NCBI GenBank assembly: GCA_020137815.1
Contig: CM035359.1
Span: 4,774,001-4,838,000, forward strand
Direction: 5' to 3'
DNA: 64,000 bases
From: Hormiphora californensis
Taxonomy: Eukaryota > Animalia > Ctenophora
How positions within the stretch are numbered: position 1 is the stretch's first letter; each line of letters starts with the position of its first letter. This document shows, piece after piece, positions 559-63,119 of this stretch. The notes below the pieces were generated by a model that searched no databases, had not been told where the DNA came from, and saw nothing but the letters and a program-made list of their open reading frames with translations. The translations under genes were made by a program, and so were the position numbers.

Positions 559-10136
<9,578 letters not shown>

Positions 10137-15889: not shown

Positions 15890-16007
15890 GACACTTGGGA
15901 ATATGTCACAGGGCAGTTTTGGTTCCGGCTAAAGTTCGAAAGAACAGCAGCTGTTCTTAGCTGCTAAGCTTACAAGAAGGATGAATGAATTGTCATGTGA
16001 ATATATA
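15890..16007. repeat. Local 70-90 bp repeat unit; the family continues at 26630-26940 and 28243-28415
   Basis: GCAGTTTTGGTTCCGGCTAAA...GAAAGAACAGC...AAGCTTACAAGAAG...TGTGAATAT recurs on both sides of the LTR element. Confidence 0.8.
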
Positions 16008-16479
16008 TGTACGGTCAGCACCCTATCTCAGATCCCTAGCCCCCGATTCCAAGCATTATGCATTCATTCATATATATTCAACCTGTGGTGCCACTGTTCG
16101 TGCCCCCTGGGACCGCCACCCTGTCTGCCTACCCTTAGTTACAGAGGGGCGGTAACTGGATGGAGGTCCCAGGGCGGGCTAAGTGCATTTACAGCCACAG
16201 GTGGTATTGTGCTCTAGTTCCCCTCTATTTCACGCCTCATCATTCATTGCACCACGTAGTGCAGACTCCTTGACAACCCAGGCAGGGCACGTGACCATTG
16301 AGATGACCAATGAGAACGCAGGATTGTGTTTTGTATGAGAGAGAACCGGGCTCGCAGGAGTCGAGAGCGATCCAAGTTAGTAGGCAGTCTATTCGAACCA
16401 CCTAAAACTTCGTTGTTAACAGTAACTCCTGAAAACCCCCTTCACCACCCCTTCTAATATCACCGAAGGTCACCCTACA
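16008..16479 (+). repeat. 5' LTR (472 bp)
   Basis: TGTACGGTCAGC...CACCCTACA, matching 26158-26629 with no mismatch seen. Confidence 0.97.
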
Positions 16480-16481
16480 TT

Positions 16482-16498
16482 TGGTGGCCACGCAGGGG
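16482..16498 (+). promoter_or_regulatory. Primer-binding site (possibly tRNA-Ile)
   Basis: TGGTGGCCACGCAGGGG starts 2 nt after the LTR. Its reverse complement ends GGCC-A-CCA, like the acceptor end of eukaryotic tRNA-Ile(AAU); the tRNA identity is inference. Confidence 0.8.
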
Positions 16499-16666
16499 CA
16501 TTCTACTACTTCGACTCCTGCCGCACCTCTCCTCATTCGAATTCTCAGACGTGTGTTAAGTGTTTGAGAATTTTTTCAGACAACTTGAGCCTAGGAACTC
16601 CTTAGACGTGTGCCTAGGAACCTTACCTACGAGAGCCCAGACATTTCTTTGACGTGTGTCTCAGAA

Positions 16667-17782
16667 ATGGCAGACCAAAAGTTGGAGAAGATACTCGCTG
16701 GACTGGACCCCGAGGACCGAAAAGCCGTGGAGAAAAGAATGAAGGCTGTCTCCAACAACCCGGGTCCCAGCAATGTTCGAGAGCTCTTAACCGTATCCAG
16801 AAAGCCACCCATTTTCAATCCCGAGACCATGGAGATAGACCGATTCATACGGTCTTTTGAGAGCTACGTACATAGCCTCGATTTGCCTGACCAGGAAATG
16901 CAAAACTCCTTCCGGTCATACTTGTCCGAAGATATGGTTGCACGTATAGATCAAGCGGCCGACCCTGAAGAAGAGGACATGTCTTGGGCTGATTTCAAGA
17001 TATTGGTGACCGATACCCTCATTACCATCAAACGGGAGAGAGGAATGCTTGCTAGGCTATCGCTGAAAACCGCTGCCCAGGAGGCCGGGGAGACCCTCAC
17101 CGAGTTCGGCGACCGGATCTCGAAACTTGGATGGCTTGCCTACCCGAAGTCTGAAGACAGAATCCTGAGAGAAGAACGACTGAAGGATGCACTGTCTAAC
17201 GGAGCTTCCAAAGATCAGGTCCGTATCTGGTTAGCCCAACATGCCGAATCGCTGAGCTACCAAGAACTGATGAGCGGAGCGGTACAGCTCGATGTGGCCC
17301 TTAGAACTTCACAGCAGAGAAACAACAACCCTGAAGTGAGTGTATTCCCTGCCCAGACTAGTTTCCCCAGGCCCCCTGGTCCCTCTCAAATTCATCCGAG
17401 TCCCTACAATTACCCAAGCGACCCTGGCAACTGGGCACAAGGTGCTGCTATGCGGAATCCTAGATTCAACGATTACTCTGCTAGCAACCCCAGACTGTGT
17501 TGGGAGTGCAATCAGCCCGGCCACATTCAGAGATTCTGTCCTAATGTGAGTGCTCAAGTACCTTCCTCTTCTAACTATCGGAGAGGACCCCGGCCCCACA
17601 GGAACTACAACAACCAGTATCACCAGTCTAACCGCCAGCAATACAATCCCAGAGGAAATCAAAACTTTGCGGGACATCAAAACGGATTGGGATTCACTCG
17701 ATACGGAGACACTTACAATCCCAGACCATCGTCCTCTTTCGTGCCTCACTCCACTAACCCCTTTCATCAGACAAAAAACTAG
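16667..17782 (+). CDS. gag: Gag with one CCHC zinc knuckle
   Basis: First ATG at 16667 (MADQKLEK); capsid-like Q..GETL.EF motif; knuckle CWECNQPGHIQRFC; Asn/Gln/Arg-rich tail. Confidence 0.92.
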   Translation: MADQKLEKILAGLDPEDRKAVEKRMKAVSNNPGPSNVRELLTVSRKPPIFNPETMEIDRFIRSFESYVHSLDLPDQEMQNSFRSYLSEDMVARIDQAADPEEEDMSWADFKILVTDTLITIKRERGMLARLSLKTAAQEAGETLTEFGDRISKLGWLAYPKSEDRILREERLKDALSNGASKDQVRIWLAQHAESLSYQELMSGAVQLDVALRTSQQRNNNPEVSVFPAQTSFPRPPGPSQIHPSPYNYPSDPGNWAQGAAMRNPRFNDYSASNPRLCWECNQPGHIQRFCPNVSAQVPSSSNYRRGPRPHRNYNNQYHQSNRQQYNPRGNQNFAGHQNGLGFTRYGDTYNPRPSSSFVPHSTNPFHQTKN

Positions 17783-17807
17783 TTCGTCCCTCCCAACCGG
17801 GGAGGGA
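17773..17807 (+). promoter_or_regulatory. -1 ribosomal frameshift signal
   Basis: A AAA AAC heptamer (17773-17779) directly before the gag TAG, a 7-nt spacer, then stem-loop TCCCTCCC-AACCG-GGGAGGGA. The pol frame is -1 and stays open from here to the protease. Confidence 0.88.
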
Positions 17808-20800
17808 AGACAGTGCAGCATTCGAGTCACCGGCAACCGAAGTACTGAGACTGCTAAAACCAATCATCCAGGGGAAAGAACGATCACCGGTTATAAACTG
17901 CGTCCCGGAAACATCGGATATAAAAGCGTGCGGTGGCTGCTCTTTCGTGACTGCACGTGTCAAGGGAAAAGATGGGGAGTTTCTCGCCTTAGTAGATACA
18001 GGGGCGTGTGCCACCTTAGTATCTTCTCGGGTAATTCAACACCTCAACTTTGAGACTAGGACGGAGCCCCTTGTACTCGACCTGATAGGTGTGGGAGGTC
18101 AGAGATTGGGAGCTAAAGGACTCATTAGAGACTTGAACCTCACTCTGGATGAGCTCACATTACCAACAAAAATGGTGGTGGCCGATATTGCTGAGGATAT
18201 GATTCTTGGTCAAGACTTCCTTGAGCGCCATGGATTCCTCGTGGACTTTAAGGAGAGACATTTAAAGAATGCTGCGGTGTGTATTGACATGGTTACCGGA
18301 CCAGATCGACCAAATATTTACACTGTACAGGTCTCGGAGGACCAACATGTAACTGCGGAAGGATATCTCTCGTGTACCGTCTTAGATGAGAATGGGATAC
18401 CTCCACTGGATGCAGTCTACAGTCTCAAATTTGCAGAAGTTTTGGAAGTACTACACTCTGATACTGACCCGTTAGGACTCTGGCCAGTGGAAGGAGGTAC
18501 TATCCATCTGCCCGTAACTATAGAGGATCCTGAGGTAACGTTGACTTTTCCTTCGGGATTGGTTGTTGGTTCTATTTCCCCACTGCCGCTTGCTTTGAAT
18601 CAGATGACTTTAGAACCACCAAACACTTTCACCGGAGACTTTGATCCGGAAAGAATTGCCCGCATCTGGAAAGACCTTGACCTGATGAACCACGATGAAC
18701 TTTCCAAGGACCAGAAGAAGCTAATGGAGGATCTGGTCTCCCAGTTTGCTGACGTGTTCGCCCTTGATAGGACCGAAATAGGTTGTACAGATCTGGTTGA
18801 GCATGAAATCCATCTGAACACCTCCTCCCCAATTCGAACTCCGTACAGGCGTGTGCCTTTACATCTGAGATCGGAATGTATTGCTGAGCTCGAACACCTC
18901 TTGCAGTGTGGCATCCTGGAACATAGTGAGTCTGACTATAATTCTCCTACCATGATAGTAAAAAAGGGGGATAGGGTAAGGTTGATTCTTGATTTCAGAG
19001 CTATCAACAAGATCACCACCCGGTCTTATTGTACCCTGCCCGCTATGAATACTATGACAGCAGGTTGTTCGGGCTGCTCCTGGTTCTCTTCGCTTGACCT
19101 GAAGGAGGGTTTCTTACAAGTCCCTCTAAAAGTTGAGCACAGAAAGTTTACTGCTTTTGCCGTACCAGGAGTGGGTCATTTCCAATTCACTCGAATGGCT
19201 CTTGGGCTCTGCGGGGCACCTGGGACGTTCCAGTGCCTTCTTGATCGTATCTTCGCGGGAGTGCCTCCCTCAGTAGCTTCTACCTTTATTGACGACATCC
19301 TCTCACCTGCGAAGACTGTGGGGGAAATGATCGAGAATCTGAAGGTGATCTTCGGGAGATTGAAGATCTCCAAACTCCGTCTCAGTCCCAAAAAGTGCAA
19401 GCTCTTCAAACGGAAGATTAAATACTGCGGCGTCTTGCTATCAAAAGAGGGAATAGAGGCAGACTCTGAAAAGATTCGAGCGGTGACCGAAATGCCCCTC
19501 CCTAACTCCTTCAAAGAAGCACGCTGTATTCTAGGAAGTTATTCTTGGTTCCGCCAGCACATCCCTGATTTCGCATTGCATGCTCGAGGTCTCATTGACT
19601 GTCTAAAGGGAGAAAAATTCATCCTTACATCTGAAGCTAGAGAAAGCATCTCGCAGCTCAACAAAGCTCTCACCCGGCCTCCGGTTCTGACATTTGCCGA
19701 TCCTGATAAAGAGATGATAGTTTATACTGATGCTTCGCTAATTGGCATCGGTGGTTGTATCGGTCACAACTTGGAAGGTAATTTCCACCCTGTCTCGTAT
19801 AGCTCCCGAATACTCACTGAGAGAGAGCAACGCTGGCCTTCCTTCAAGAGGGAGCTGTTCTCCCTGTACTACCATATCACCCAAAGATGGAGATACTTTT
19901 TAGTTGGGGCTAAGTTCCAAGCCTATGTGGATATGAAGGCCATCACTCTGGACGGTTTTATGAAACACGCTACCCAAGCCATTATTCTCCGGTGGCTGAT
20001 GGAACTCTCGTGCTTTGACTTTAAACTGGAATTCAAAGCTGGCAAGCTTATGGAGGTACCTGACTGTCTTTCCAGGCTTCCTGTCTCTTCAGATGAGCTC
20101 TTTGAATGGTGGACTGGACCTACTGGTGATCTGGAACGCCCCGTCCCCTGGAACCCGACTGATGATCCTCCGGATGATACAGATCGAGAAGTGGCCTGTA
20201 TGACTGCCGACGTGGCGCTAGAAAGATCGGATCCGGGCGTGCGCCTGTTTCCTGATTCCTCACCTGTTGGTAGTTTTGAAAACCCGATTCCTGGTTATTT
20301 CAGCACTGAACTACTTAACGCTCAGCAAAGAGATGACAACATCAAGTTGGTAATTACGTGGCTAGTGGAGGACATTAAACCACCAGTCTCTACTGAACTC
20401 ACTCCTGATTTGTACTGGTACTGGTGCTACTACAACCACTTGACGGTGAACGGCAAGGGCTTGTTGTGCTACAAGTACCACCGCCGTAACTCACAGAAGT
20501 TTGCAGAGCTCGTGATCCTGCCCCCCGAACTGATAGAATGCAGTATTAAAGCTCACCATGACCTGGATAGTAGTGGCCACCTAGGACCAAAGAAAACTGT
20601 TGAGAGAATGAAGGAGAAATACTACTTCCGAGGTCTATCAGACAAGGTCAAATACTACTGTGACACTTGCGAAACCTGCTTCATAAATAATCGGCCCTAC
20701 CTGAAAAAACCGGCAGCCCCTCTTCGCTTGTGGGTAAACAACAGGCCAAACCAGTGTGTAGCCATCGATCTGGTTGGGCCCATACGAGGACCGTGTCACT

Positions 20801-21963
20801 ACAAATGGATATTCACCTTGGTGGACAAGTTCACTCGCTTCCTTGGAGCTGTTCCCCTCGTTAATGCCCAAGCACCAAAAATAGCTCGAGCTATAGCTGA
20901 TGAATGGATTTTTAAATATGGAGCACCGGAAACCATGATGTCGGACCAAGGTGGGAATCTCTCCTCCGCAGTCGTAGTAAAAGAGCTCTATAACATCATG
21001 GGGATAAAGAAACTACGCACCACAGCTTATCATCCCGCTGGTAATGGGCAGGTAGAAGCGTATAATAAACATCTTGTGGTGATCTTACGAAAGTTGATTC
21101 AAAAGTCACCAAAAGAATGGCCATCAAAACTACAACCGGCGGTGTTCGCACTCAATTCCTCGATCAATATCAGCACAAAGTTTTCTCCAGCTAGACTTTG
21201 GTTCGGAAGGGATCTCAGAATCCCAGCTGATCTGTGCCTCGGGACTACCTCAACCCAGTTCTACAAATCCAGAGAACATCTGGCTTCCGCCCAATACACT
21301 GATCTGCAAGAGACCTTTGAACTGGCCCAGGCTAACAGCATCTCATCGGGATTCCGAAACAAGCATGTTTTCGACCGCAAAAAGGGCTTCCACGTGGAAT
21401 ATAAGGAAGGGGATAGAATACTGGTCCACAAACCTTTGCCTCCCACTGTGACTGAGTTTAGGAAGTTCAAAAATGGGTACACGGGACCCTGGAAAATCCT
21501 CAAAGTTCTCTCGGAATGGACATACCTGGTCCAGCATGAAAGGTACCCGGGTAAGGAACTGGTGGTTCATTTCAACACTATGAAATTAATTCGAGACGAC
21601 CTAAGATTTACTAAAGATGGGCCGCTGATCGAAGATGATGACTCTGACTCTGAGGAGGAAATGATTTCCCACTGCTCCTCCGAACCAGTTCCTGGTGACC
21701 CCGCTCCAGATACTAGGAAGGGACGTGAACCCGATTATCAATTACTAGATACAACGGAAGGGCGTGTGCCCAACTCCGTTCCTGATATCTCTGCCGGGCG
21801 TGTGCCTGAAAACCTAGGCCAAGCAGCTATGGAAGGGTGTGTGCCTAGTGACCTGGTCGTGGAGGAAAACATCGTACCCACGAGTTCTGAGGTACTCAGC
21901 GATGACGGCAAGGGAGCTACTGTGAAACGAGACTACAATCTGAGGAAACGTCCTACCGGTTAG
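17773..21963 (+). CDS. pol: Pol polyprotein (protease, RT, RNase H, integrase), expressed as a Gag-Pol fusion
   Basis: LVDTGA protease; RT motifs LDFR, LDLKEGF and FIDD; RNase H YTDAS; integrase HH...C..C, IDLVG, SDQG, NGQVE and GPW. Confidence 0.96.
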   Translation, partial: KKLVRPSQPGREDSAAFESPATEVLRLLKPIIQGKERSPVINCVPETSDIKACGGCSFVTARVKGKDGEFLALVDTGACATLVSSRVIQHLNFETRTEPLVLDLIGVGGQRLGAKGLIRDLNLTLDELTLPTKMVVADIAEDMILGQDFLERHGFLVDFKERHLKNAAVCIDMVTGPDRPNIYTVQVSEDQHVTAEGYLSCTVLDENGIPPLDAVYSLKFAEVLEVLHSDTDPLGLWPVEGGTIHLPVTIEDPEVTLTFPSGLVVGSISPLPLALNQMTLEPPNTFTGDFDPERIARIWKDLDLMNHDELSKDQKKLMEDLVSQFADVFALDRTEIGCTDLVEHEIHLNTSSPIRTPYRRVPLHLRSECIAELEHLLQCGILEHSESDYNSPTMIVKKGDRVRLILDFRAINKITTRSYCTLPAMNTMTAGCSGCSWFSSLDLKEGFLQVPLKVEHRKFTAFAVPGVGHFQFTRMALGLCGAPGTFQCLLDRIFAGVPPSVASTFIDDILSPAKTVGEMIENLKVIFGRLKISKLRLSPKKCKLFKRKIKYCGVLLSKEGIEADSEKIRAVTEMPLPNSFKEARCILGSYSWFRQHIPDFALHARGLIDCLKGEKFILTSEARESISQLNKALTRPPVLTFADPDKEMIVYTDASLIGIGGCIGHNLEGNFHPVSYSSRILTEREQRWPSFKRELFSLYYHITQRWRYFLVGAKFQAYVDMKAITLDGFMKHATQAIILRWLMELSCFDFKLEFKAGKLMEVPDCLSRLPVSSDELFEWWTGPTGDLERPVPWNPTDDPPDDTDREVACMTADVALERSDPGVRLFPDSSPVGSFENPIPGYFSTELLNAQQRDDNIKLVITWLVEDIKPPVSTELTPDLYWYWCYYNHLTVNGKGLLCYKYHRRNSQKFAELVILPPELIECSIKAHHDLDSSGHLGPKKTVERMKEKYYFRGLSDKVKYYCDTCETCFINNRPYLKKPAAPLRLWVNNRPNQCVAIDLVGPIRGPCHYKWIFTLVDKFTRFLGAVPLVNAQAPKIARAIADEWIFKYGAPETMMSDQGGNLSSAVVVKELYNIMGIKKLRTTAYHPAGNGQVEAYNKHLVVILRKLIQKSPKEWPSKLQPAVFALNSSINISTKFSPARLWFGRDLRIPADLCLGTTSTQFYKSREHLASAQYTDLQETFELAQANSISSGFRNKHVFDRKKGFHVEYKEGDRILVHKPLPPTVTEFRKFKNGYTGPWKILKVLSEWTYLVQHERYPGKELVVHFNTMKLIRDDLRFTKDGPLIEDDDSDSEEEMISHCSSEPVPGDPAPDTRKGREPDYQLLDTTEGRVPNSVPDISAGRVPENLGQAAMEGCVPSDLVVEENIVPTSSEVLSDDGKGATVKRDYNLRKRPTG

Positions 21964-23088
21964 AGTATCCTATCTACCAAATACGTGAGTTGTAATCGCC
22001 TAGTACTAATATGAACTGTGAATGACAGCTGAATACTCTCCTTTTTACACTAGAGCGATTAGTAATGAACAGTTATAATGGGATTAGTAAAGAACAGTTA
22101 TCATATGAAGTATGCATATGAAAGCGACAGTATATTCTAACTATGTCAAGATATATAATATTTAATGTGCTAAGTACACATATCCGTGTAGCGAATATTC
22201 TAACCCCGTGCATGATGTTATCTTAAACGTGCTGTTTCCCTGCCTGGAGTTGCCCTACTCTGCCCTGCCTATCTCCCCTCATCTCTCCCCTCATCTCACC
22301 CCTCATCACATCTGTAGGTATATTAAGATCGCAACTGTAGTGTTTGATATGTAAAGCTATAATTATTTCATTATTCGGATCATACTTTAGTCCGGCATAC
22401 TACCACCCCCAATCAGCGCTGAATTTCGTAGTATCTGGACAGTATGATTTCGATGCCTGCAGGCCCTATAATATATATACTGTAGCTTTAGAAGTGTGGA
22501 AGAACAAGACATGAAATGTGAAATGAGACAGAGAAATGTGAATTGTGAACCGATATGAATTGAAATGAGTGAAAGAGAAGTGAAATGGATCGAAGTCTCG
22601 CAATACGTGTGAGATTATGAGAGAGTATTGATTGTGAAAGAGGATTTGAATTGTTTAGTGCATTGAAAGTGTAAGTTACCACAGAGAGTGTGTGCACTTT
22701 GTTAATAAGTTGCGATATACCTACAGATCACATACATATTTTATCAAGCGTGAGGGAATTATCACAGTTCAGGGGTTTCATATTACTTTAGTAACGTCAT
22801 AATGTCATATACGTGCCCGAGCCAATCTTTTCATGTTTAACAATGTCATGATTCTAGGGGTCTACGCTGATACGAGCTTTTCAATAGACGCATTAATAGA
22901 TATGTAAGCACTAGAGATATTACCTTATTGATGAGCATACAGTATACAGCTCGCACTGCCCGCTTCACTTTACACTTCCAGACCAAAAACCCTGTCACGA
23001 CCCTCTCGCCTACAGCCCAAGACTAGATACTCCTTCCTCCCGTCTTCTCGCCCGACGCTAATTAAACTCTTGCATCATTTAGTCAGAT

Positions 23089-25203
23089 ATGGCTTCGCAT
23101 CTCGCTATGGTTATCATGCTCCTACTCATGTCGGAGTGCACAGGGATTGACAAAGATCCGGACTACTCCAATTACCTAGGACAATACCAGACAGACATGG
23201 GGATAGTCACTAAAGAAGAAATTGGTCTAGCTTTTGTTCCTGGGAAACTTCTGGGCACCAGCTCAGTTCCCATTCTCCAGAGCGTGTTCGTCTCACTGAA
23301 ACTCCCTACTCTTCCGGCCAGACCTTGCAAAACTAACTGTAACCCAAATGTGGAGGAGATAGAAAATTGGATACCTCCATTCAATACAGGCGAATGGATA
23401 ACTGGAATACTGCCTAGCCAGGAGGATATTCTTCGCACCTCGCACAAAGATCAGGTATCACAATGTCTAGCAGACTGCTTGACGGTGAACAAATGTGTAC
23501 AGTTCTCCTACAGACTCAAAGGTGGAACTTGTCATCTTCAGGACCGTGTAACCTACTACAACGCGAACTCCACCTCGGACTTCTACACGGCCAGAATGGA
23601 AAGCCTGCTTACATCGGTGAACAAGACAAGGGACCTAGCCTGCGGTCGACAAGAAAATCCCTTGTACCGATTACTAAGTTCCAGTGTGGACCTTACCCGA
23701 AGACGTTATAGGGACCTGTTCGTTTCGAAATTTCAGGACATTAAGAAAGCATATGACACGGGTCATGCCAACCTCAACAAGAGATCTACTTTCGGGCGTG
23801 CGCCTGAGAAGAGATCTCTTGACGGGATCTTGGCAAACCTGCCCATAGTAGGATATCTCTACCGTATCCTCCGAGCCCCAGAAGATGCCAGTAAACTGAA
23901 AAACCACGTTCAAAACCTAGAAACCTCCTTCCAGAACTTCGTAGAAGACACCATCTCCAGCTTCAAATCCATCAAGACGTATGAAAACAACGTCCTCAAG
24001 GTGTTTGACGCAGAAGTTAGAGAGATCTACAAACATCTAGCCGGCGTCCAATGTGACCTAATGACTGTGGCTACTATCTTTGCTCGTTCTGAAGCAGAGA
24101 AGGTATTTGAACAGAAACTTGCGACCCTTTTTACCGGACCAAGCCAGGGGCGTCTCAACGCTAGGGTAAGCAGCACCCTTACACTCCAAGACCTAACCAA
24201 AATTGTTCAACAAAACTCCGAGTTTCGAGGCACAATCTACCGAGAGAACCCGGAAATCCTATTTAGGGTTGGAGAAATCCTGTTCCTCAACGTCAAGGAG
24301 ACACCCTCAGACATGGTCTTCCACTTTGTACTATTTGCCCCATCCATTGCCAAACGCAGCCTCTACCAAACATACACGCCTGTACAGGTACCTATCTTTG
24401 TTAATGGGTCCTGTTTCAACATGAGGGTACCGGAGATGTTGGTCATGGACAAAGAACAGCTGCACGAGGTCCAGACAAAGCAATGTACGGAGTATGACGA
24501 CATCATAATATGCAGCGAAAACTTTGAAGATAGATTCTCTGCACTGAAAAGGCCGTACGGTTGTGCAGATCAAAACAGCCTTCACACGTGCAAATCGGAC
24601 CCAGTCTCCTGCGAGAGCGCCCTCCAGTACACTAAGGCAGGTGCTCTAGTTTTCTCCAGAAACGAAATATTGGGGATGAAATTGCAACAAATGAGCACCA
24701 TGGAGACAATCAGCACGCCTGATAAGAAAACTTACTTCTTTAAATGGGCTGACTTCAAACTAATCCAAGCTGATAAACAAATCATGTATGGAACTGCTGA
24801 GAACCATAAACAATCGAACATCACTTGGAACACCCCAGAGACAACGAAGGCCCTGGACCAATGGATGAGGACAACGAAAATTGAATACGACCGACAAAAC
24901 ATTTCCAAGCTCCACGAGGAATTGCAGCAGTCCAAAACGCTCCTTGCGGACAATTACGGACCGGGCTATATTGGAAGCATTTCCAAGAATAGTCTTTTGG
25001 AGATCTTGACCTGGTTGGCGATTTCGGTGGCGTGTGCCACCGGACTCATCGGTCTGACATTCGCAGTACGGAACTTCAAAGGCACCGGTCCCGGACCCGA
25101 AACCAGACGCAAGGAGGAATCGCTGCCTCTAACAACCGCGGTGGAACCCAGCGCCACAAGAAAAAGCATCGTCTCTCTAACTGCAAGCAGCGACAGTAAC
25201 TAG
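23089..25203 (+). CDS. env: Env-like class I fusion glycoprotein (F-type) with PAN/apple-like insert, 704 aa
   Basis: Signal peptide; CxxxCxxxxxCxxFxY...CxL; KR|ST and KR|SL sites; hydrophobic SLDGILANLPIVGYLYRIL followed by a heptad helix; Cys-rich block; pre-TM helix ISKLHEELQQSKTLL; TM at 24994-25068; several N-glycosylation sequons. Confidence 0.85.
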   Translation: MASHLAMVIMLLLMSECTGIDKDPDYSNYLGQYQTDMGIVTKEEIGLAFVPGKLLGTSSVPILQSVFVSLKLPTLPARPCKTNCNPNVEEIENWIPPFNTGEWITGILPSQEDILRTSHKDQVSQCLADCLTVNKCVQFSYRLKGGTCHLQDRVTYYNANSTSDFYTARMESLLTSVNKTRDLACGRQENPLYRLLSSSVDLTRRRYRDLFVSKFQDIKKAYDTGHANLNKRSTFGRAPEKRSLDGILANLPIVGYLYRILRAPEDASKLKNHVQNLETSFQNFVEDTISSFKSIKTYENNVLKVFDAEVREIYKHLAGVQCDLMTVATIFARSEAEKVFEQKLATLFTGPSQGRLNARVSSTLTLQDLTKIVQQNSEFRGTIYRENPEILFRVGEILFLNVKETPSDMVFHFVLFAPSIAKRSLYQTYTPVQVPIFVNGSCFNMRVPEMLVMDKEQLHEVQTKQCTEYDDIIICSENFEDRFSALKRPYGCADQNSLHTCKSDPVSCESALQYTKAGALVFSRNEILGMKLQQMSTMETISTPDKKTYFFKWADFKLIQADKQIMYGTAENHKQSNITWNTPETTKALDQWMRTTKIEYDRQNISKLHEELQQSKTLLADNYGPGYIGSISKNSLLEILTWLAISVACATGLIGLTFAVRNFKGTGPGPETRRKEESLPLTTAVEPSATRKSIVSLTASSDSN

Positions 25204-25346
25204 AGTATCACATTAACTGGGCCTTCCGAATGTTCGAGGGGAGAGCCTAAATAAAGTAGATTCAAATATCAATTAACCATCTGTTTGAGCCCATTTCCAG
25301 TTGCCCTAGTTTCTAGTTACCCTCTGCACTCATCGTCCCACTTGAT

Positions 25347-25919
25347 ATGAAGTCTTCAGCCTCTACCTCAGCTGTGACTGGCGTGTGCCAGACACAGCTG
25401 AAATCTGTGATCGTAGTGCCAAAACCGTCCATCACGGTCAGAAGAATCCCGATGGTGAAAATAAACGGCGAAAACTCCCCTGCGTGCACAGAGTGCTTCA
25501 TAAAGGAGAGGTACAAACAGCCCAGCTACAATGACCGAGGACCTCTCACATCATTAGAAACAGTGGATCTCTTAAATAAGGTGGCAATGGTGGCGTCTGA
25601 GTGGAGGGAGAACCACTGCAAGGACAAGCTCAACCGAGCAGTAGCACAACTAGATACAAAAAAGACCCTAGAGGAAATGAGAAAAAGAGAGAAAAGGGCT
25701 AGAGAAGACGGGGAGACACCAGGAACGAAAAGTTGGAGAAACAAAGTCAACAAAGGGATTATTAGGGCGGTAGTTGAAATCAAGGAAGCAAGCAGGAGGC
25801 CTGAAACCTCGGAAATCTGTACAACCATCAAGGTGGGACTGGGAGTACTACACTCACTTCATTTCCTCCAGTGGGGAGAGCCGCTGCCGGACTTTGTAAA
25901 ACATTTCTGTGAGAACTGA
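25347..25919 (+). CDS. ORF4 of the LTR element, unknown basic 190-aa protein
   Basis: Non-repetitive sense-strand ORF between env and the PPT; CTEC, HC and RKREKRAR motifs; the frame opens immediately after acceptor-like TTTCTAG at 25316. Confidence 0.7.
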   Translation: MKSSASTSAVTGVCQTQLKSVIVVPKPSITVRRIPMVKINGENSPACTECFIKERYKQPSYNDRGPLTSLETVDLLNKVAMVASEWRENHCKDKLNRAVAQLDTKKTLEEMRKREKRAREDGETPGTKSWRNKVNKGIIRAVVEIKEASRRPETSEICTTIKVGLGVLHSLHFLQWGEPLPDFVKHFCEN

Positions 25920-26144
25920 AAATAATGCATCTTATTTATTTTAACCACCCGTTTGGGTGCATCACCGCTATATTTTAATTTTCCAGAGAGACTATACTTA
26001 AGACTCTAAAGACATAATTATATTACCAGTGTTGATGAATTTTGAAGGACCACTGTAAGCTGAAATTGGTGAAAAATTTGATTTGTTTAGCGTATATCAG
26101 ACTCTTCACTTGAACCGGGAGTGGGGGATCTAGGGCTGCCGTAC

Positions 26145-26157
26145 AGCGGGGGGTGGA
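26145..26157 (+). promoter_or_regulatory. Polypurine tract
   Basis: AGCGGGGGGTGGA abuts the 3' LTR. Confidence 0.8.
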
Positions 26158-26629
26158 TGTACGGTCAGCACCCTATCTCAGATCCCTAGCCCCCGATTCC
26201 AAGCATTATGCATTCATTCATATATATTCAACCTGTGGTGCCACTGTTCGTGCCCCCTGGGACCGCCACCCTGTCTGCCTACCCTTAGTTACAGAGGGGC
26301 GGTAACTGGATGGAGGTCCCAGGGCGGGCTAAGTGCATTTACAGCCACAGGTGGTATTGTGCTCTAGTTCCCCTCTATTTCACGCCTCATCATTCATTGC
26401 ACCACGTAGTGCAGACTCCTTGACAACCCAGGCAGGGCACGTGACCATTGAGATGACCAATGAGAACGCAGGATTGTGTTTTGTATGAGAGAGAACCGGG
26501 CTCGCAGGAGTCGAGAGCGATCCAAGTTAGTAGGCAGTCTATTCGAACCACCTAAAACTTCGTTGTTAACAGTAACTCCTGAAAACCCCCTTCACCACCC
26601 CTTCTAATATCACCGAAGGTCACCCTACA
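26158..26629 (+). repeat. 3' LTR (472 bp)
   Basis: Matches the 5' LTR at an offset of 10150 nt. Confidence 0.97.
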
Positions 26630-26944
26630 TATATGTGTGATAAGCAGTTTTGGTTCCGGCTAAAATACGAAAGAACAGCTAAGCTTAGGTACAAGAAGAA
26701 TGAATGAATGGCCTTGTGAATGTAATATATATGAGCAGTTTTGGTTCTGGCTAAAATACGAAAGAACAGCTTACAGCTTCGAAAAAGTACCGGTACTGTG
26801 CGTTGAGGAATGTATATTGTATACACGTCTTTTGATACAAACTTACCCGAGTAATTTGGAAAAGTACCCGAGTTCTTACATACCAGAGATCTTTTTGTAA
26901 GTTGGTCCATGAGCTTACAAGAAGAATTAGGGAATGGCTTGGTA

Positions 26945-28230
26945 ACATCTGGCGCGACCCCCGCACACAGGTGTCGGGTCCGCCCCCTGAAAAAAGGGTC
27001 GTGCCTTTCAAGGCTTTTTGCACGCGATCCACTGGACCGATTTACATCCCGCTTGTCGCAAAAGACTGCAAATTGATCCTAGTTTACTGGAAAATACCCG
27101 AGAAGTTTGTCTGTCAACAGGAATTGGGTCAAAATTGACACTGAAGTCAAATCTATAATCTAGCTTCCGAGCCTTTTTGCACCACTCCCAGACGGTTTAG
27201 AATGAATCTGATGGTATCAGAAGATAGGTCGAGACCTTGTACTGGAAAATACCCGGCATCAAATCCTGATGCTAATTGCATCAACATATCTCCCAATATC
27301 TAGGGTTGCGACTGGCTATTTGAAACAGTTTTTCACTTTTTTCTCTTGTCTGCCCACAAATCAAGTCGAACCCAAATTTTTTTGACCTTGTGTTACAGAG
27401 ACAGTCCCTGGGTAGTTTTTTGGGTGGTTGGAGATGTCTCATTTTGTCTTCCGGGGTCAGGGTCACGTGATATCTATCCAAATTTGGTGGTTCAATTTAC
27501 CCGCCTCGGTCTGCTAATTTGAAACACCCGTATCTCCCTCAATTTCTCCACGAAACCAAAATTTTTGACATGAATAGTTAGAAAAGGGTTGTGCAGAGCC
27601 ATTCCATGTCTGAAATCTGAATTTTGTTGAACGTGCTTGGTGCAATAACCTTTTCCAAAAACTGTTTCAAATTAGCAGGAAAACAGTTTTTGCCTCATAT
27701 TCGGCCAACTTTTGGCGGAAATGACTCAAATCATAGTTTATATCCTGCCTCATGCTCATATTGAACAACAAAAATTTCGAAAATCCAATCGGAGAAAAGT
27801 GTTTCAAATAGCCCTCCTCAGTGTTTCAAGTTACCAGACTCTCTTCACTGTGCTACAGCACACACACGACACCAATCAGAGAGCAAATAACGCGCATTTG
27901 TTTCAAATAACCAGAGCACGTGTTTCAAGTTATCAGACACTGTTTCAAGTTAGCAGGCGTTTCAAATTGCCAGTCGCTACCCTACTAAACCGCATGGGCG
28001 TAGTGCAGAAATTCTCGGAAGCCATTATAGGTTTGACTTCAGTGTCAATGATCCAATTCCTGTTGACAGACAAACTTCTCGGGTATTTTCCAGTATATTA
28101 TGATCAATTTGTAGTCTTTTGCGACAAGCCGGATGCAAATCGGTCCAGTGAATCGCGTGCAACATCCCTTGAAAGAAACGACCCTTTTTAGGGCGGAGCC
28201 GTCACCTGTGTGCGGGGTCGCACACGGTGT
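26945..28230. mobile_element. Non-autonomous element with long (about 230 bp) imperfect TIRs
   Basis: GCGACCCCCGCACACAGGTG...TACTGGAAAATACCCGAGAAGTTTGTCTGTCAACAGGAATTGG is mirrored at 28020-28230. Confidence 0.75.
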
Positions 28231-44665: not shown

Positions 44666-45500
44666 CCCCTTTAATCCGCGTGAAAAGTTTCAATTTGCAT
44701 TTTAGAATAAAGCCAACTAACCAAAAATACCCCCATTTTGCCCCAAAATAAAAATTTCGAAAAAAGGGATAATGGGGGGGGGAAAAAACATAATTTCCAA
44801 AAATTCGAACTCTTTACTTTGATTCTCTCTCCCTCTTCTCTCTCCCTTCCCTCTTAAACCCTTTCTCTAATCCTCCTCCGTCCCAAAAATCTCCCCTTTA
44901 ATAATTTTTTTGTATTTCTTGGGCCCCTATAAAACTGGGTGAATTTAAAGGACATTTTGGGGGTAAAAATCCCGGTAATTCTTTGGGGTTCGCACTCAAA
45001 GTGAAAAAAAATTTTTATTAAGTAGCCTGGGCGGGACCCCCCCCCCGTCGCATCGAATGGGGCCGGGTTTTGGCGCCCATAAACCCCACCCTTAATTTAA
45101 TCAAATAAAATTCCCCCTTTTTAAAACAGTAACTATTTCATCATTTTTAAACTAAAGGGGAAAATTCTTAAAACAAAAAGGAAACCATCATATTATATTC
45201 CATTTCTTGAGATGTGGAATGGGGGGCATAAAATGGGGCCACCAGACAATATAAAAAAGGGGGCAAAAAAAATTTCCCATTTTCCAATATTCCCCCATTG
45301 CCAAGGGGGGAATATAAAAAAGGCCTTATAAGTGAGGGGTTAAATAAAAAAGATAAAAACCAGAAATAAAAAGGGTAAAAAAGGGGGGGGGGGCCCAACC
45401 AATATAAAAAGTTCCCAAAATCCATAAAAAATTCAAGGGGTAAAAAAGAAACCTTAATAAAGAAATAAAAAACAAAAAAGATCCTTATTTTTGCCCCTTT

Positions 45501-45531
<31 letters not shown>

Positions 45532-45929
45532 TGGGGGTTAATAAATAAATAAAGGGGAAAGGACAGATAAAAATAGTTTGGGGGAAATAAGGGGGGACAT
45601 TCACGTGAAACCAGGGGAAAAGACCGTGTTACTACACAACCCTATAAAAGGAAAGTAAGTGGCAACTTGCCAGGGATATTAAGAGGTATTTGGGGGTCCA
45701 AGGATTATAAAGTACCTAATTAAAGGATAGTAAACCCCCTTCGCCCCCACGGGCGATTTCGGGGAAATGGTATTGGTGCTGGAATGGGGGAAAACTACTC
45801 ATCAGTCTAACTAATGACATGCACTTCCCATCTTTGTAAAAAGGGACCTTTAAAAGGGGTCAGGCGGGATCTGCGAGTTTCTGGTTTCAACGTCCCCAAA
45901 GATGATCCGGCGATCAAATTTTTATAAAA

Positions 45930-48900
45930 GAACCCCTTTTAAAAATTAAAGGGGGGCCCCCAAAAAAGGGGAAAAACCCAAATTTAAAATTCCCCAAAAA
46001 TTTTGGGGGGGGGTTTTTTAAAATTTTTAAAAAAAAATTTTTTTTAAAAAGGGGGGGAAAAAAAAAAAGGGGTTAAAAAGGGGGGGGGGGGGGGGGTTTT
46101 AAAAAAATTGGGGCCCCAAAAAAAAATTTTAAAAAAAGGGGGGTTTTTAACCCCCTTTTTTTTAAAAAAAAAAAAATTTTAAAAATTCCCTTTTTTTTTT
46201 TTTTTTTTGGGGGGGGGGGAAAAAGGGGGGGGGGCCCCCGGGGGGGGGGGGGGGGGGTTTGGGGGGGGGTTTTTTAAAAAAAAAAAAAAAAATAAAAAAA
46301 AGGGGGGGGGGGGGGGAAAAAAAACCCCGGGGGGGTTAACCTGGGGGAAAAAAAAAAAAGGAAAGGGAAAAAAAGGGGGGAAAAAAAAAGGAAAGGGCGG
46401 GGGAAAAATTTTTTAAAAAAAAAAGGGGGGGTTTTTTTTAAAGGAAAAATTTAATTTAAAAAATTTTTTGGGGGGGGGTTTAAAAAAAGGTTTTTTGGGG
46501 GGAAAAAAAAAAGGGTTTTTCCCCCCCCCAAAAAAAAATTTTAAACTTAAAAAAATTTAAAAAATTTTTTTGGGGTTTTTTTCCCGGGGTTTAAAGATTA
46601 CCCTTTTAAAAAAAAAAAAATTAAGGGGGGGGAAAAAACCCTTTTTTGGGGGGGGGGGGGGGGGTTTTTTTAAAAATTAAGGGGTTTTGGGGGGGTTTTT
46701 TTTTGGGGGGGGTTTTTTGGGGGGTTTTTTCCCCCCCTTTTGGAAAAAAGGGGGAAAAGGGGGGGTTTTTTGGGGGTTTTTTTTTGGGGGCCCCCCCAAA
46801 AAAATTTTTTTAAAAAAAAAAAAATTTAAAAAAAACGGGGGGTTTAAAAAAAAATTTCCCGGGGGGAAAAAAACCCTTTCCCCCTCCCCCCCCCCTTTTT
46901 TTTTCCCCCCTTTTTTTTTCCCCCTTTCCCCCCTTGTTTTTTTAAAAAAAAATTTTTTTCCCCCCCCTTTTTTAAAATTTTTAAAAATTTTTTAAAAAAA
47001 ATTGAAACCCCTTTAAAAAGGGTTAAGGGGTTTGGGAAAAAAAATTTTTTAAAAGGGGGGGGGGGGCCCCCCCCCGGGGTTTTTAAAAAAAAAAATTCGG
47101 GGGGAAAAAAGGAAAAAAGGGGAAAGGGGGGAAAAAACCCCCCAAAAAAGTCAAATTTTTTTTTAAAAAGGGGGTTTTTTTGGGTTTTAAAAAAAAAACC
47201 CTTTTTTTTAAAAAAAAAAGGGGAAAAAAAAAATTTTTAAACCCCCCGGCCAAAAAAAGGGGGAAAAAAAAAAGGGAAAAAAAAAAAAAGGGGGGGGGGG
47301 GGAAAAAAAAAAAAAAAAAAGGGATGGGGAAAAAAAAGGGGGGGGAACAAAAAAAAAAGGGAAAAGGGGGGGGGGGGGCCGGGGGTTTTTTAAAACAATT
47401 TTAAAAAAAAAAAAAGGGGAAAAAAAAAAAAAAGAAAAGGGGGAAAAAAAGGGGCCCCCAAAAAAATTTTTTTTTCCCCAAAATTTTTTTTTTTTTTTCC
47501 CCCGGGGGGGAAAGGGGGGGGGGTTTTTTTTTCCCTTTTTAAAAAAACCCCAAAAAAAAAAAAAAGGGGGAAAAAAAGGGGCCCCCCCTGGGAAAAAAGG
47601 GGGGGAAAACCCCCCCCCTTTCCCAAAAAATTTTTTTGGGGGGGGAAATTTGGGGGGGGGCCCCCAAAAAAAAAAAATTTCCCCTTTTTGGGGGAAAAAT
47701 TTGGGGGGGGAAAGGGGGTTTTGGGGGGGAAAAAAATTAAAAATTTAAAAAATTAAGCAAATCCCCTTTTAAAAAAGGGGGGGGGGGGGAAAAAGGGGAA
47801 TTTTTTTAAAAAAAGGGGGGTTGGGGGGGGGAAATTTTTTAAAAAAAATTTTTTTTTTTTTTTTTTTTTATTTGGGGCTTTTAACCCCAAAAATTTTTTC
47901 CCCGGGTTTTTTTTTAGGGGGAAATTTTCCCCCAAAAAACCCCCCCAACCCCCAAACCCAAAAAAAAAATTTTTTTTAAAAAAAAACCCTTTTTTTGGGG
48001 TTTTTGAAAAAAAAATTGGCCCAAAAAAAAGGGGGGGAAAAAATTTAAAAAACCCGGGGGGCCCCGGGGGGGGAAAAAAAAGGGCCCCCCCTTTTTTCCC
48101 CCCCCCCCCCAAAAATCCCGGGTTTTTTTGGTTAAAAGGGGGTTGGGTTTTTGGAAAAGGAAAAAATTTTTTTTTTAAAAAAGGGGCCCCCCCCCCCCTT
48201 TTTTTTTTTTTTTTTTTTCCCCCGGGGGGGGGAAGGGGGGTTTGGGGTTGGGGGGGGAAAGGGGGGGAAAAAAGGGGTTTTAAAAAAAAATTAAAAAAAA
48301 AAAATTTTAAAAAAAAAAAACCCAAAAAAAAACCCCCGGGGGGAAAAAGGTCGGAATAAAAGGGAAAAAAAACCCAAACCTATTGGGGCCCCTGGGAAAA
48401 AAAAAATTTTCCCCCTTTTTTTTACCCCCCCCCCCCCCCTTTTTTAAAAAACCTTTGGGGCCCGGGGGGGGGCCCCCCAAAAGGGGGGAAAAAAAAAGGG
48501 GGGTTTTGGGGGGTTTAAAAAAAACCAAAAAAAAAAGGGTTTTTTTTTAAAAAAAAGGGGGCCCCCAAAAAGGGGGGGGGTTTTCCGGTCCCAAAACCCC
48601 TTTTTTTTTTTTTTCCCCCCAAAAAAAAAAGGGGGGGGTTTTTTTGGGATTTAAAAAGAAACCCCCCCCCCCCCCCCGGGGGGGCCCCCCTTTTTTTCCC
48701 CAAAACCCAAAAATTTTTTTTCCCCTTTTTAAAAAAAACCCCAAAAAAATTTTTTTTTCCCCCTTTTCCCCCAAAAAAAGGAAACCCCCTTTAAAAAGGC
48801 CCCCCCTTTTTCCCCCTTTTTCCCCCGGGGGTTTTTGGGGGGTTTGGGTTTTTTTTTTGGGGGGGCCCCCAATTTTTTTCCCCCCCGGGGGTTTCCCCAA

Positions 48901-49160
48901 AAATTTTTTTTTTATTAAAAAAAACAAAAAACCCCCCCCCCGGGGGGGTTTTTGGGGGGAAAAAAAAATTTTTAAAAGGGGGGGGGAAAAAAAAAAAAAA
49001 CCCCCCCCCCCCCAAAAAAAAACCCCCCCCCCCCCCAAAAAACCCCCCCAAAAAACCCCCCAAAAAAAAACCAAAAAACCCCCCCCCCCAAAAATCCCCC
49101 CCTTTTTTCCCCCCATTTTTTCCCCCCCCCTTTTTTTTTTTCCCCCCCCCTTTTTTTTTG
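45930..49160. other. Homopolymer-run region, probably a sequencing or consensus artefact
   Basis: Almost entirely A/T/G/C runs with no periodic unit, grading into partly normal sequence on both flanks. Confidence 0.8.
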
Positions 49161-50144
49161 GGTTTCTCACTATAAAAAACCTCGAAAAACCAAAAATCAA
49201 TTTTCTATTCACACAATATGCCCCGAATACTCAGTGCCAAAGAAGAAAGCGGGCCCCAGTTTTTTCAACAGGGGAGTGGCGGGGGGAAAAGATGCCCTTT
49301 TTTAAAAAGGGGGGGGCACCCAACCGAGGGGGAAAAAAAGAGGGGGCGCCCCCCGCCAGACAAAAAGGCCCGCGACCAAAAAAAGCCCCGTTTTCAAGCA
49401 AAAAGCGGGCATTCCCTTTCTCCCCAAAGACCTATAAACATCCCCTTTCTTGGGGGGGCCTTAGAAATTACACTACTGTTTAGGGTGAAATTTTGGAAAA
49501 GTCGTTATTTATGAGCGGGAGGTATTGTGCCAAACCCCAGTACAAAAATATTTCCCCCCGTAGCGATATAGGGGCCGGCGGGGGCCCAAAAAACACATGA
49601 TAGTAAAACCGTGATATTTTTCAAACCCAAAAAAGAGTATTCCAAATATTTCTGAACAAAAGAAAGATGGAAGGCTAGTCAGGTTTGGTGTGTTCCGAAC
49701 ACTGGAAATATATACTGCATTCCAATCTCAGGGTAGCCTTTTTTTGAAAGGAATAGGGGGGAGAAAAGAGAGAGGTCGGAGAAGAAAGAAGAGAGGAGAG
49801 AGAGAAGGGGGAGAGGAAGAGGGAGAGAGGGAGAGAAGAGGGAGTGAGGAAGTGTCTCATGCGTTGAAAAATTTCCATATTTTTAAAAGCTTAGCCGGCA
49901 TATTTCTAGGCTACGTGTGTAGGATCGCTGGGTGGATAGGGTTGTAGGCCCGGGAGAGGGAAACAAAGAATTTAGGTAGTAAGAAGAAACAAGAAAGGGA
50001 AGAGATAGATGTAAAGTTCCAAACAAAAGAAAGAAAGACCAAGTTTGGATCTACGGGTCCAGGGTCACTAAACAGAGTTGTTGAGTAAGTACAAAGAGTA
50101 TAATAGAGGCTCGAAGATCTCATTTTCCCGTGGTAATAAGGCAA

Positions 50145-60484: not shown

Positions 60485-61060
60485 CAGAGAGAGAGACAGA
60501 TCAGAGAGAGAGACAGATCAGAGAGACAGAGAGAGATAAGCTACTATAGAGCACTGCTAGAAAAACAATTTCTATCAGTGTGATCGGAGTGGGGACCTCT
60601 AAACTTGTCTCGCGTGGGTTCAGGCATTCAGGAAAATGACGTTGATTCAGGTGTTCAAATCAAATTGCTAATAAAACAAACGTTTCGACACAACGTGTCC
60701 TCATCAGTGTTAAGCTATTAGTGCTCAATATATAGCTATCTCTCCCTCCCATATCATGATAATGGCCGACAGCCAACCCTTATTAGGAACTCGCCCCTCG
60801 CCACGTGTCCCGATCGATGGCACATTTTAACTAGATAGTACTTCTAAACTAGTTTTGAGACCAGTTTTTGAGTTAGAAAGTATGACGCATATAACCACCA
60901 CGTCGCGATTCTCCAGACTCACAAGACGCAGAGCTATAATTTACGAGTGACGTATAATTAATTCCGGTTGCGTTAGTCTCGAAAGCTAGGAGTAGGATTC
61001 AGAAAAACTCTGTGCCTTATTTGGTCCCTTATTTGGTCCTAACATAACATGTCAACTATC

Positions 61061-62772
61061 CAGCTAATCAGACCTCCCTCCCTTCCCAGTTTATCAGACC
61101 TCCCTCCCTCCCCAGTTTATCAGACCTCCCTCCCTTCCCAGTTATCAGACCTCCCTCCCCACTCCCCAGCTAATCAGACCTCCCTCCCCAGCTAATCACA
61201 AGAAAGAAATAAAAAGCATAAGAAGAAATAAAGAATAGAAAAAAAGCATATAAAAAATCAATAAAAAAAGCTAATCAGACATCCTCCAGCTAATCAGACC
61301 CCTCCCTCCCAGCTAATAAGACCTCCCTCCCCAGCAATCAGACCTCCCGTCCCCAGCTAATCAGACCTCCCTCCACAGCCAATCACACCTTCCATCCCCA
61401 GATAATCAGACCTCCCTCCCTCCCCAGCTAATCAGACCTCCCTACCTCCCCAAAAAGCTAATCAGAACCTCCCTCCATCTCAGTGAATTTTCCCAGACCT
61501 CACTCCCACTCCCCAGTTTATAAGACCCTTCCTCCCAGTCTTATCAGACCTCCCTCCCCAGCTAATCAGACTCCCTCCCCAGCTAATCACACCTCCCTCC
61601 CAGGTAATCAGACCTCCCTCCCAAGCTAAATCACACCTCCCTCCCCAGATAATCGACCTCCCTCCCTCCCCAGCTAATCAGACCCCTCCCTACCTCCCCA
61701 GCTAAGCAGACATCCCTCCATCTTCCGTTATCAGACCTCCCTGCCCTTCCCCAGTATCAGACCACCTTCCTCCAGCTAATCAGACCCTCCTCCCCAGATA
61801 ATCAGACCTCCCTCCCCACAGCTAATCAGACCTCCCTCCCCCAGAGCTAATCAGACCACTCCTCCCCTTTGCCGATAAGGACCTCCCTCCCCAGGCTAAT
61901 CAGACCTCCCTCCCCAGTGCTAATCACGAGCAGACATACCCGCTAATCAGACCTCCCTCCCCAGCCCACTAATCAGAACTCCCTCCCCAGCAATAAGACC
62001 TCCTCCAGACTAATCAGGACCTCCCTCCCCAGTGGCAGCTAATCAGACATCCCTCCCCAGGCAAAACAAGAAGAGAAAAACACAAAGAACCACCCCCTCC
62101 TCCGCCCCTCTCGCCCCGACCTCCCCCCCACCACCTCCTCCACCCTCTCCATCCCTTACAGCAAAAACCGAGCAAAAAGACACACAGAAAAAACAAAGAG
62201 ACCGAAAGACAAGAAAGAAAAGGAGTAAAAGAACCAAATAAAAGAGGAATAAGAAATAATAAATAAAAAAGATAATCAGACATCCCTCAATACCCAGCTA
62301 ATCAAAACCTCCCTCCCGCTAATCACACCTCCCTCCCTCCCAGCTATCACACCCGCCCTCCCCCCAGCTAATTCAGACCTCCTCCCCAGCTAATCACCAC
62401 CCTCCCTCCCCAGCTCCTAATCAGAACCCTACCTCCCCAAGCTAATCAGCTCCCTCCCTCCCCAGCTAATCACACCTCCCTCCCCGCTAATCACACCTCC
62501 ATCCCTCCCCAGCTAATATAAGACCTCCCTCCCCAAGTAATCAGACCTCCCTCCCCAGCTATCAGACCTCCCCTCCCCCAGCTAACTCAGACTCCCTCCC
62601 CTCCCCCCAGCGAATTCACCACCTCCCTCCCAAGCTAATCGACCTCCCTCCCTCCCCAGCTAATCAGACCCTCCTCCCTCCCCAGCTTAAGCAGACCCCT
62701 CCCCAGATAACAGACCTCCCTCCCTCCCCAGGCTAATCAACCTACCTCCCAGCTAATCAGACCTCCCTCCCC
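61061..62772. repeat. About 23-bp C-rich minisatellite (noisy)
   Basis: Unit CAGCTAATCAGACCTCCCTCCCC repeated dozens of times with indels and two A-rich interruptions. Confidence 0.9.
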
Positions 62773-63119
62773 GATTGATGTCGATGAGAACTGGAGACGG
62801 CCAACCACATACAGTATCGCCGTGTTCCCACTGTCAGAGTGTACTGCAATGAGAAGAAATTACACCGGCCCCCGCGGGGAAAAAATGGGCATCAGTTTGC
62901 GTGTACTGCTCCGTTTTTCACGGGACTTGAACGAGGGTGACGGCAAGAGTCTCACCTATTACATGGTATCCTTACATTGTGTATTAAATCTAAAATGACT
63001 GAGCAGCATGCTTGTTAATGAACCTTGACGTGTTTGCTTGTCTCGCAAGCGCGCTCGCGACTAGCAAACACGACATGCAGTTCACACCCTGCAATAGCTA
63101 TCTCTCCCTCCCATTAGCA

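What the first reader, a model, noticed from the sequence alone, without database searches (positions are those of the whole stretch)
16008..26629. Intact, very recent env-bearing Ty3/gypsy element with four ORFs: a candidate infectious retrovirus-like agent in a probable ctenophore
Seen: LTRs identical by eye, TATA TSD, PBS, PPT, frameshift signal and four unbroken ORFs. Known: insect errantiviruses (gypsy, ZAM) are Ty3/gypsy elements whose baculovirus-F-related Env allows cell-to-cell infection. Inference: this is an active analogue with a more complex genome (env plus an accessory ORF), in what looks like an early-branching animal. I cannot say whether this family has already been catalogued.
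Basis: partly seen in the sequence, partly recalled or inferred. Interest (0 to 1): 0.92.

Follow-up and report, generated by a model that had tools for sequence, protein, structure and literature searches.

The report
Comb-jelly retrotransposon with adhesin-bearing envelope
This is an intact, recently inserted retrovirus-like jumping gene in a comb jelly, of a kind already catalogued, but its predicted membrane-fusion protein carries an extra adhesion-type (PAN/apple) domain that likely binds target cells, and it has a fourth, likely protein-coding gene with no relative found.

Summary
Observation confirmed. The element has two identical 472-nt LTRs, a TATA target duplication, PBS, PPT, a -1 frameshift signal and four unbroken ORFs. 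The host is a pleurobrachiid-like ctenophore: a flanking arylsulfatase is 89% identical to a Pleurobrachia bachei protein. ORF3 folds as a paramyxo/pneumovirus F-type fusogen (pLDDT 82.7; Z 12.6 to prefusion RSV F). All 6 env differences to a second sample's copy are synonymous. The headline is published: Chary and Hayashi (eLife 2026, PMC13524379) list 9 ctenophore env-carrying Ty3/gypsy elements, 6 with F-type env. Two things I did not find in print. First, a PAN/apple domain inserted in F2 (Z 9.1, rmsd 2.2 to lectin SML-2), marking a subgroup of related envs (41 of 66 have the long insert). Second, ORF4, a basic 190-aa orphan with coding-like codon use. Particles, infection and present activity are not shown, and the env lacks a canonical furin motif. 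Verdict: new variant of a known kind, interest 0.5.

The parts
16004..16007 (.). target-site duplication TATA (left)
   Evidence: sequence
16008..16479 (+). 5' LTR, 472 nt, TG...CA
16482..16499 (+). primer-binding site, complementary to a tRNA 3' end (CCA); tRNA type not determined
   Evidence: no identical PBS among the rows of the eLife table
16667..17782 (+). gag, 371 aa, CCHC zinc knuckle at aa 277-293
   Evidence: zf-CCHC E 0.0031, below Pfam cut-off
17773..17807 (+). predicted -1 frameshift signal: A_AAA_AAC, 7-nt spacer, 8-bp hairpin
17758..21963 (+). pol: protease, RT, RNase H, integrase with GPY/F end
23058..23086 (+). candidate branch point and splice acceptor ahead of env (inferred)
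   Evidence: sequence; no spliced contig seen
23089..25203 (+). env, 704 aa, F-type class I fusogen: signal peptide, F2 with PAN insert, dibasic sites, F1, membrane anchor, tail
23362..23616 (+). PAN/apple domain inside env F2 (aa about 92-176)
23809..23874 (+). dibasic KR (aa 241-242) and candidate amphipathic fusion peptide (aa 243-262)
   Evidence: inferred from position
24991..25071 (+). env transmembrane helix (aa about 635-661)
25347..25919 (+). ORF4, 190 aa, basic (pI 9.4, net +10), no hydrophobic anchor, orphan
26145..26157 (+). polypurine tract
26158..26629 (+). 3' LTR, identical to 5' LTR
26630..26633 (.). target-site duplication TATA (right)

Best explanation
This is an intact, very recently inserted Ty3/gypsy LTR retrotransposon of a ctenophore whose env is predicted to fold as an F-type class I fusion protein with a PAN/apple domain inserted in F2, and it likely spreads between cells of its own host, with the PAN domain likely serving as the attachment module. 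Steps. (1) Shown in sequence: LTRs, TSD, PBS, PPT, four open frames, catalytic motifs. (2) Inferred from known Ty3/gypsy biology: LTR-driven RNA, Gag-Pol by -1 frameshift, tRNA-primed reverse transcription, integration with a 4-bp duplication. (3) Predicted: Env is made from a spliced RNA, cut at a dibasic site, and fuses membranes as paramyxovirus F does (about 0.7). (4) Inferred: paramyxoviruses use a separate attachment protein (own knowledge); this element has none, and the PAN domain, a fold used for glycan and protein binding in parasite adhesins and plasma proteins, would supply it (about 0.5). (5) Inferred: particles move from somatic to germ cells as Drosophila gypsy does (about 0.5). 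(6) ORF4 likely codes (about 0.75); my best guess is a soluble basic RNA- or nucleus-associated regulator like CERV or Rev (about 0.3).
For: Anatomy. Pol order PR-RT-RH-IN and best solved relative Ty3 Gag-Pol, E 1e-56. Env profile hits hPIV3 F at E 5.6e-13; model pLDDT 82.7, pTM 0.67; Foldseek RSV F E 1.8e-13; VIA Z 12.6 over 377 residues, rmsd 6.4. PAN: Pfam PAN_1 in 9 of 14 aligned envs; profile hits MIC4 E 3e-4 and SML-2 E 0.004; model aa 92-176 aligns to SML-2 (Z 9.1, rmsd 2.2, 76 aa), kallikrein apple (Z 8.0) and MIC4-A5 (Z 7.9); four PAN-type cysteines invariant or nearly so in 14 rows. Selection: against run X5, env 6 synonymous and 0 non-synonymous differences (all 10 differences on that contig were listed; expected synonymous share 0.22; p 2e-4 to 2e-3), pol 15 of 21 listed synonymous. 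Closest env relatives with names are from P. bachei and Mnemiopsis leidyi.
Against: No particles, no fusion assay, no germline data. The env has dibasic KR sites but no canonical R-X-K/R-R motif, which 9 of 13 aligned relatives have, and the segment after it is only mildly hydrophobic (mean 0.84). Few near-identical copies are apparent in the source sample: the internal region lies in long contigs with 0 differences. RNA support is four pieces of 151-244 nt on pol end, env and ORF4 in one metatranscriptome, where DNA is not excluded, with no splice joint. A copy lacking env and ORF4 exists in metagenome runs X6/X7, so the family may move without them. A shared fold shows no ligand. The selection test rests on 6 sites, and X5 contigs may merge copies. 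gag differences were 2 synonymous, 3 non-synonymous.
Confidence: 0.7

Rival explanations
1. The element moves only inside germ cells like an ordinary retrotransposon; env and ORF4 are passengers not yet decayed because the copy is young.
For: Non-canonical cleavage motif; an env- and ORF4-less joined form in X6/X7; intact frames alone do not prove function, as PMC13524379 notes for mobilisation.
Against: 6 of 6 env differences between two samples are synonymous; the env architecture is kept at about 30% identity across ctenophore genera.
Confidence: 0.15
2. The element is a true horizontally transmitted virus that passes between individual ctenophores in seawater, with PAN setting host range.
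For: Single very young insertion with a complex genome; a 0.3-1.1% diverged copy in a second sample that may lack this insertion site.
Against: PMC13524379 finds env and pol trees tracking hosts, read as mainly vertical descent; no relative found in IMG/VR or JGI metagenome scans, which reach close relatives only.
Confidence: 0.1
3. The PAN domain is structural (stabilises the prefusion trimer or shields it from proteases or host defences) and does not bind a receptor.
For: 25 of 66 related envs lack the insert and keep the F core; PAN sequence identity to lectins is only 11-16%.
Against: The closest folds are adhesins and binding modules; the insert is kept in a whole subgroup.
Confidence: 0.3
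4. LTR identity or the element's integrity is an assembly artefact.
For: The window holds about 4.5 kb of homopolymer noise at 45000-49500; no record spans the element.
Against: Independent short-read contigs match with 0 differences over kilobases and carry the left junction; the LTR differs from the deeper majority LTR type.
Confidence: 0.04

Closest known systems
Ctenophore F-type 'ancient errantiviruses' of Chary and Hayashi 2026 (PMC13524379: Bfor_1, Bova_3, Hcal_2, Mlei_1, Pbac_1, Pbac_2)
   Same: Ty3/gypsy gag-pol-env with F-type env, intact frames, LTRs, low copy number (1-2), same phylum.
   Different: The paper describes four conserved F domains; my term searches of its main text found no PAN/apple domain or accessory ORF. 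Three of the six F-type rows have another PBS; the other three list none, so this element may be one of them. Figures and the GitHub sequences could not be seen.
Drosophila errantiviruses gypsy and ZAM
   Same: Three-ORF core with F-type env; soma-to-germline infection is the model for how it would work (passages).
   Different: Infection is shown there, not here; fold matches rank lispivirus and paramyxovirus proteins above baculovirus F; extra PAN domain and ORF4.
Bdelloid rotifer LTR elements with paramyxovirus-like env or other ORF3s (PMC5408684, abstract and term search)
   Same: F-like env and captured extra ORFs in non-insect Ty3/gypsy elements.
   Different: There the extra ORF is an ORF3 with enzyme homology; no hit for ORF4, PAN or apple in its text. 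ORF4 here has no enzyme match.
C. elegans Cer1 CERV (PMC10309623, abstract only)
   Same: An LTR retrotransposon with an accessory protein from a spliced RNA, needed for genomic RNA export: a precedent for ORF4.
   Different: No homology tested or shown; analogy only.
PAN/apple adhesins: Sarcocystis SML-2, Toxoplasma MIC4; plasma kallikrein and HGF PAN domains
   Same: Same fold as env aa 92-176; MIC4 binds host galactose (abstract start).
   Different: Here the domain sits inside a viral-type fusogen; ligand unknown.

Membership tests
Ty3/gypsy (Metaviridae) | LTRs TG...CA with short TSD, PBS, PPT | tested here: met
Ty3/gypsy (Metaviridae) | pol order PR-RT-RNase H-IN with catalytic motifs | tested here: met
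   (D-D-x36-E, one residue off the usual 35)
Ty3/gypsy (Metaviridae) | RT groups with Ty3/gypsy rather than Retroviridae, BEL or copia | tested here: inconclusive
   best solved match Ty3 E 1e-56 against foamy virus 5e-27; no tree against GyDB, which is not held
Errantivirus in the operational sense of PMC13524379 | uninterrupted gag, pol and env | tested here: met
Errantivirus in the operational sense of PMC13524379 | F-type env: signal peptide, F fold, membrane anchor | tested here: met
Errantivirus in the operational sense of PMC13524379 | furin site and hydrophobic fusion peptide (reported as conserved) | tested here: inconclusive
   dibasic KR at the aligned place but no R-X-K/R-R; peptide amphipathic
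Errantivirus in the operational sense of PMC13524379 | several near-identical copies per genome (most, not all, members) | tested here: inconclusive
   no genome held; contigs suggest few copies, depth is no copy number
'Ancient errantivirus' group | POL tree position; RNase H plus mini domain in the bridge | not tested
Infectious endogenous retrovirus (gypsy/ZAM-like) | enveloped particles and Env-dependent entry into germ cells | not testable with these tools
   needs bench work
PAN/apple domain | cysteine pattern and fold | tested here: met
   Pfam score 18.4 is under the 21.4 cut-off for this protein
PAN/apple domain | ligand binding | not testable with these tools
   fold only
Retroviridae | retroviral-type RT and SU/TM env | tested here: not met

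The most novel reading that the evidence does not exclude
A lineage of retrovirus-like elements in one of the earliest-branching animal phyla has built a one-piece attach-and-fuse envelope by inserting a PAN/apple lectin-type domain into a paramyxovirus-like F protein, and carries an accessory regulator gene: an infectious complex retrovirus analogue that evolved apart from vertebrate retroviruses.
Probability: 0.3. Interest if true: 0.8.

Novelty: new variant of a known kind. Interest (0 to 1): 0.5.

Why it matters
How F-type retrotransposon envelopes find their target cell is open: PMC13524379 says the transmission mechanism is unknown outside Drosophila. A discrete, well-predicted PAN domain in Env gives a candidate receptor-binding module that can be tested alone. 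It also shows a class I F fusogen taking up a cellular-type adhesion fold. ORF4 would extend accessory genes to ctenophore elements. The existence of env-bearing gypsy elements in ctenophores is not new.

Tried and rejected
No host genome is held, so copies and solo LTRs could not be mapped. Word-indexed search with env found nothing; the full HMMER scan found 192 relatives. Single-sequence fold of env was useless (pLDDT 34). ORF4: no hit in the 5.8-billion search (36 candidates), Pfam, JGI metagenome scan, 291 fetched proteins; NCBIfam chorismate mutase E 0.043 and PDB lectin E 0.25 rejected as chance. ORF4 was not run in the full HMMER scan or folded (caps spent on env), and the ESM Atlas did not complete, so 'orphan' is provisional. 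Pol in IMG/VR and env in JGI metagenomes: no locus, so ORF4 could not be sought in sister elements. Rfam: 0 matches. No AATAAA in the LTR. Earlier scan notes: nothing. Gaps in cover in X5 (part of integrase) and X6 prove nothing. tRNA type of the PBS not determined. Literature searches for PAN with LTR retrotransposon and envelope, and PAN with fusion glycoprotein and virus, gave 0 papers; searches gave no paper on it; subscription journals are not covered. The env tree is the quick method, midpoint-rooted; one origin of the insert is not ruled out but not shown.

Full report
Observation. The element runs from 16008 to 26629. Its LTRs are 472 of 472 nt identical, start TG and end CA, and are flanked by TATA. 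Zero differences put the 95% upper bound of LTR divergence at 0.63%; I give no age in years, having no ctenophore rate. It interrupts a dispersed host repeat whose other copies in the window are uninterrupted.

Pol. Pfam gives aspartyl protease, RT, RNase H, integrase zinc finger, core and C-terminal domain in Ty3/gypsy order. The best solved relative is Ty3 Gag-Pol (E 1e-56), well above foamy virus (5e-27). The expected catalytic motifs are present, with D-D-x36-E in integrase (motif roles from my own knowledge). I built no tree against GyDB, which is not held.

Host. The intronless arylsulfatase frame at 2363-4855 is 89% identical over 429 columns to a Pleurobrachia bachei protein and about 49% to a cluster holding a Mnemiopsis leidyi protein. 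The two named clusters among the closest env relatives are P. bachei and M. leidyi (10 clusters looked up, 7 without names, 1 named only 'hypothetical protein'; 10 more, none named). The host is thus a ctenophore, likely a pleurobrachiid. Small shares of the element occur in marine metagenomes.

Env. HMMER over 1.84 billion proteins found 192 relatives at E up to 0.001 and listed 150. I aligned 120 of the 150 with the query. The profile matches hPIV3 F at E 5.6e-13, and the 60 rows shown are all paramyxo- or pneumovirus F. The model has pLDDT 82.7 and pTM 0.67. Foldseek gives RSV F at E 1.8e-13 with low TM-scores of about 0.3, and lispivirus glycoproteins first among viral models, baculovirus F from rank 18. 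VIA-align gives prefusion RSV F at Z 12.6, 377 residues, rmsd 6.4. Against function: there are two dibasic KR sites but no R-X-K/R-R, which 9 of 13 aligned relatives have, and the following segment is amphipathic rather than strongly hydrophobic.

The PAN insert. Residues about 92-176 form a confident separate domain (block pLDDT 80-97). It aligns to Sarcocystis lectin SML-2 (Z 9.1, rmsd 2.2, 76 residues), chain 4a5t_S (Z 8.7), plasma kallikrein (Z 8.0), MIC4-A5 (Z 7.9) and HGF N-domain (Z 7.5). Sequence agrees: PAN_1 in 9 of 14 aligned envs, and the 14-row profile hits MIC4 and SML-2. Of the 150 relatives, 66 were long enough to show both the N-terminus and the core; 84 were left out. They fall in two groups: 41 with 187-265 residues and mostly 7-11 cysteines before the core, and 25 with 102-149 residues and mostly one cysteine. 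A profile of the insert hits 35 of the 41 (13 were in its training set; 22 of the other 28) and 0 of the 25. A quick tree on the F1 core alone (55 rows; short cores dropped) needs 2 changes of this label against 16 in shuffles; one origin is not ruled out and not shown. Most of these proteins have no known host, so the insert may reach beyond ctenophores.

Selection and copies. Run X5, a second sample of the same organism label, holds contigs of 3304 nt with 36 differences and 3800 nt with 11. All 10 differences between 22500 and 26139 were listed: 6 in env, all synonymous; 1 in ORF4, synonymous; 3 non-coding. With an expected synonymous share of 0.22 this gives p 2e-4 (2e-3 if 0.35 is assumed). 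In pol 15 of 21 listed differences are synonymous, from a table cut to 40 of 230 rows; in gag 2 of 5. This is slim but direct support that env is under purifying selection. In runs X1/X2 the internal region lies in long contigs with no difference, suggesting few diverged copies. In X5 the right flank contig begins at 26629 with 7 letters that do not match the LTR, which fits an empty site but also a paralogous repeat. One oligo-dT metatranscriptome holds short pieces of env and ORF4; DNA is not excluded and no splice joint appears.

ORF4. It is 190 aa, basic, without a membrane anchor. Its length and codon use exceed chance. A candidate acceptor lies at 25299-25300 (sequence; inferred). My guess is a CERV- or Rev-like regulator, by analogy only (PMC10309623, abstract).

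What is known. Chary and Hayashi 2026 (PMC13524379) report 1512 intact env-carrying Ty3/gypsy elements, with F-type and gB-type env, including ctenophores. I read the abstract, the first parts of sections 5, 6 and 9, sections 7 and 22, term passages, and rows of supplements 1 and 5. Nine ctenophore elements are listed, six F-type. Three of those have another PBS; for three none is given, so this element may already be in the set. Figures, their supplements and the GitHub sequences were not visible and may show the insert. Term searches of the main text found no PAN, apple or accessory ORF. PMC5408684 (abstract, term search) gives precedent for F-like env and extra ORFs in rotifers. Searches for PAN with retrotransposon envelopes or fusion glycoproteins returned 0 papers.

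Verdict. A real, intact, young F-type errantivirus in a ctenophore: a known kind. The PAN/apple-bearing envelope and the orphan ORF4 make it a variant worth a closer look. It likely works like Drosophila gypsy, but particles, entry and present activity are untested. Interest 0.5.

Noticed in passing
window 22738-26016 (runs X6, X7): A marine metagenome contig joins 22738 to 26016, dropping env and ORF4 together; loose ends in the second run of that sample fit the same join. Likely an env-less derivative of the family.
   Followed up: partly
window 26110-26629 (runs X2, X5, X8): Related LTRs with several differences are far deeper than the internal region (hundreds to thousands against 33-64) and some carry a different sequence upstream of the PPT: possibly a non-autonomous or sister family sharing the LTR. 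Depth is no copy number.
   Followed up: partly
window 26954-28221: Inverted arms of about 247 nt, 86% alike, around about 780 nt, with very high depth in the reads: likely a high-copy foldback or MITE-like element beside the insertion.
   Followed up: no
window 2363-4855: Intronless arylsulfatase G-like gene with a 26-copy 21-nt tandem repeat giving a Ser/Thr/Asp-rich stalk and a hydrophobic end.
   Followed up: partly
window 45000-49500: About 4.5 kb of homopolymer noise, likely a base-calling or assembly artefact.
   Followed up: partly
P0133 (Mnemiopsis leidyi): This env relative has two accessions with the same sequence on one contig, fitting a recent duplication of a PAN-bearing element.
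   Followed up: no
window 16548-16662: The leader repeats a short GACGTGTG motif three times; possible splice-donor or packaging signal.
   Followed up: no
window 61060-62773: Degenerate tandem array of 23-25-nt units.
   Followed up: no
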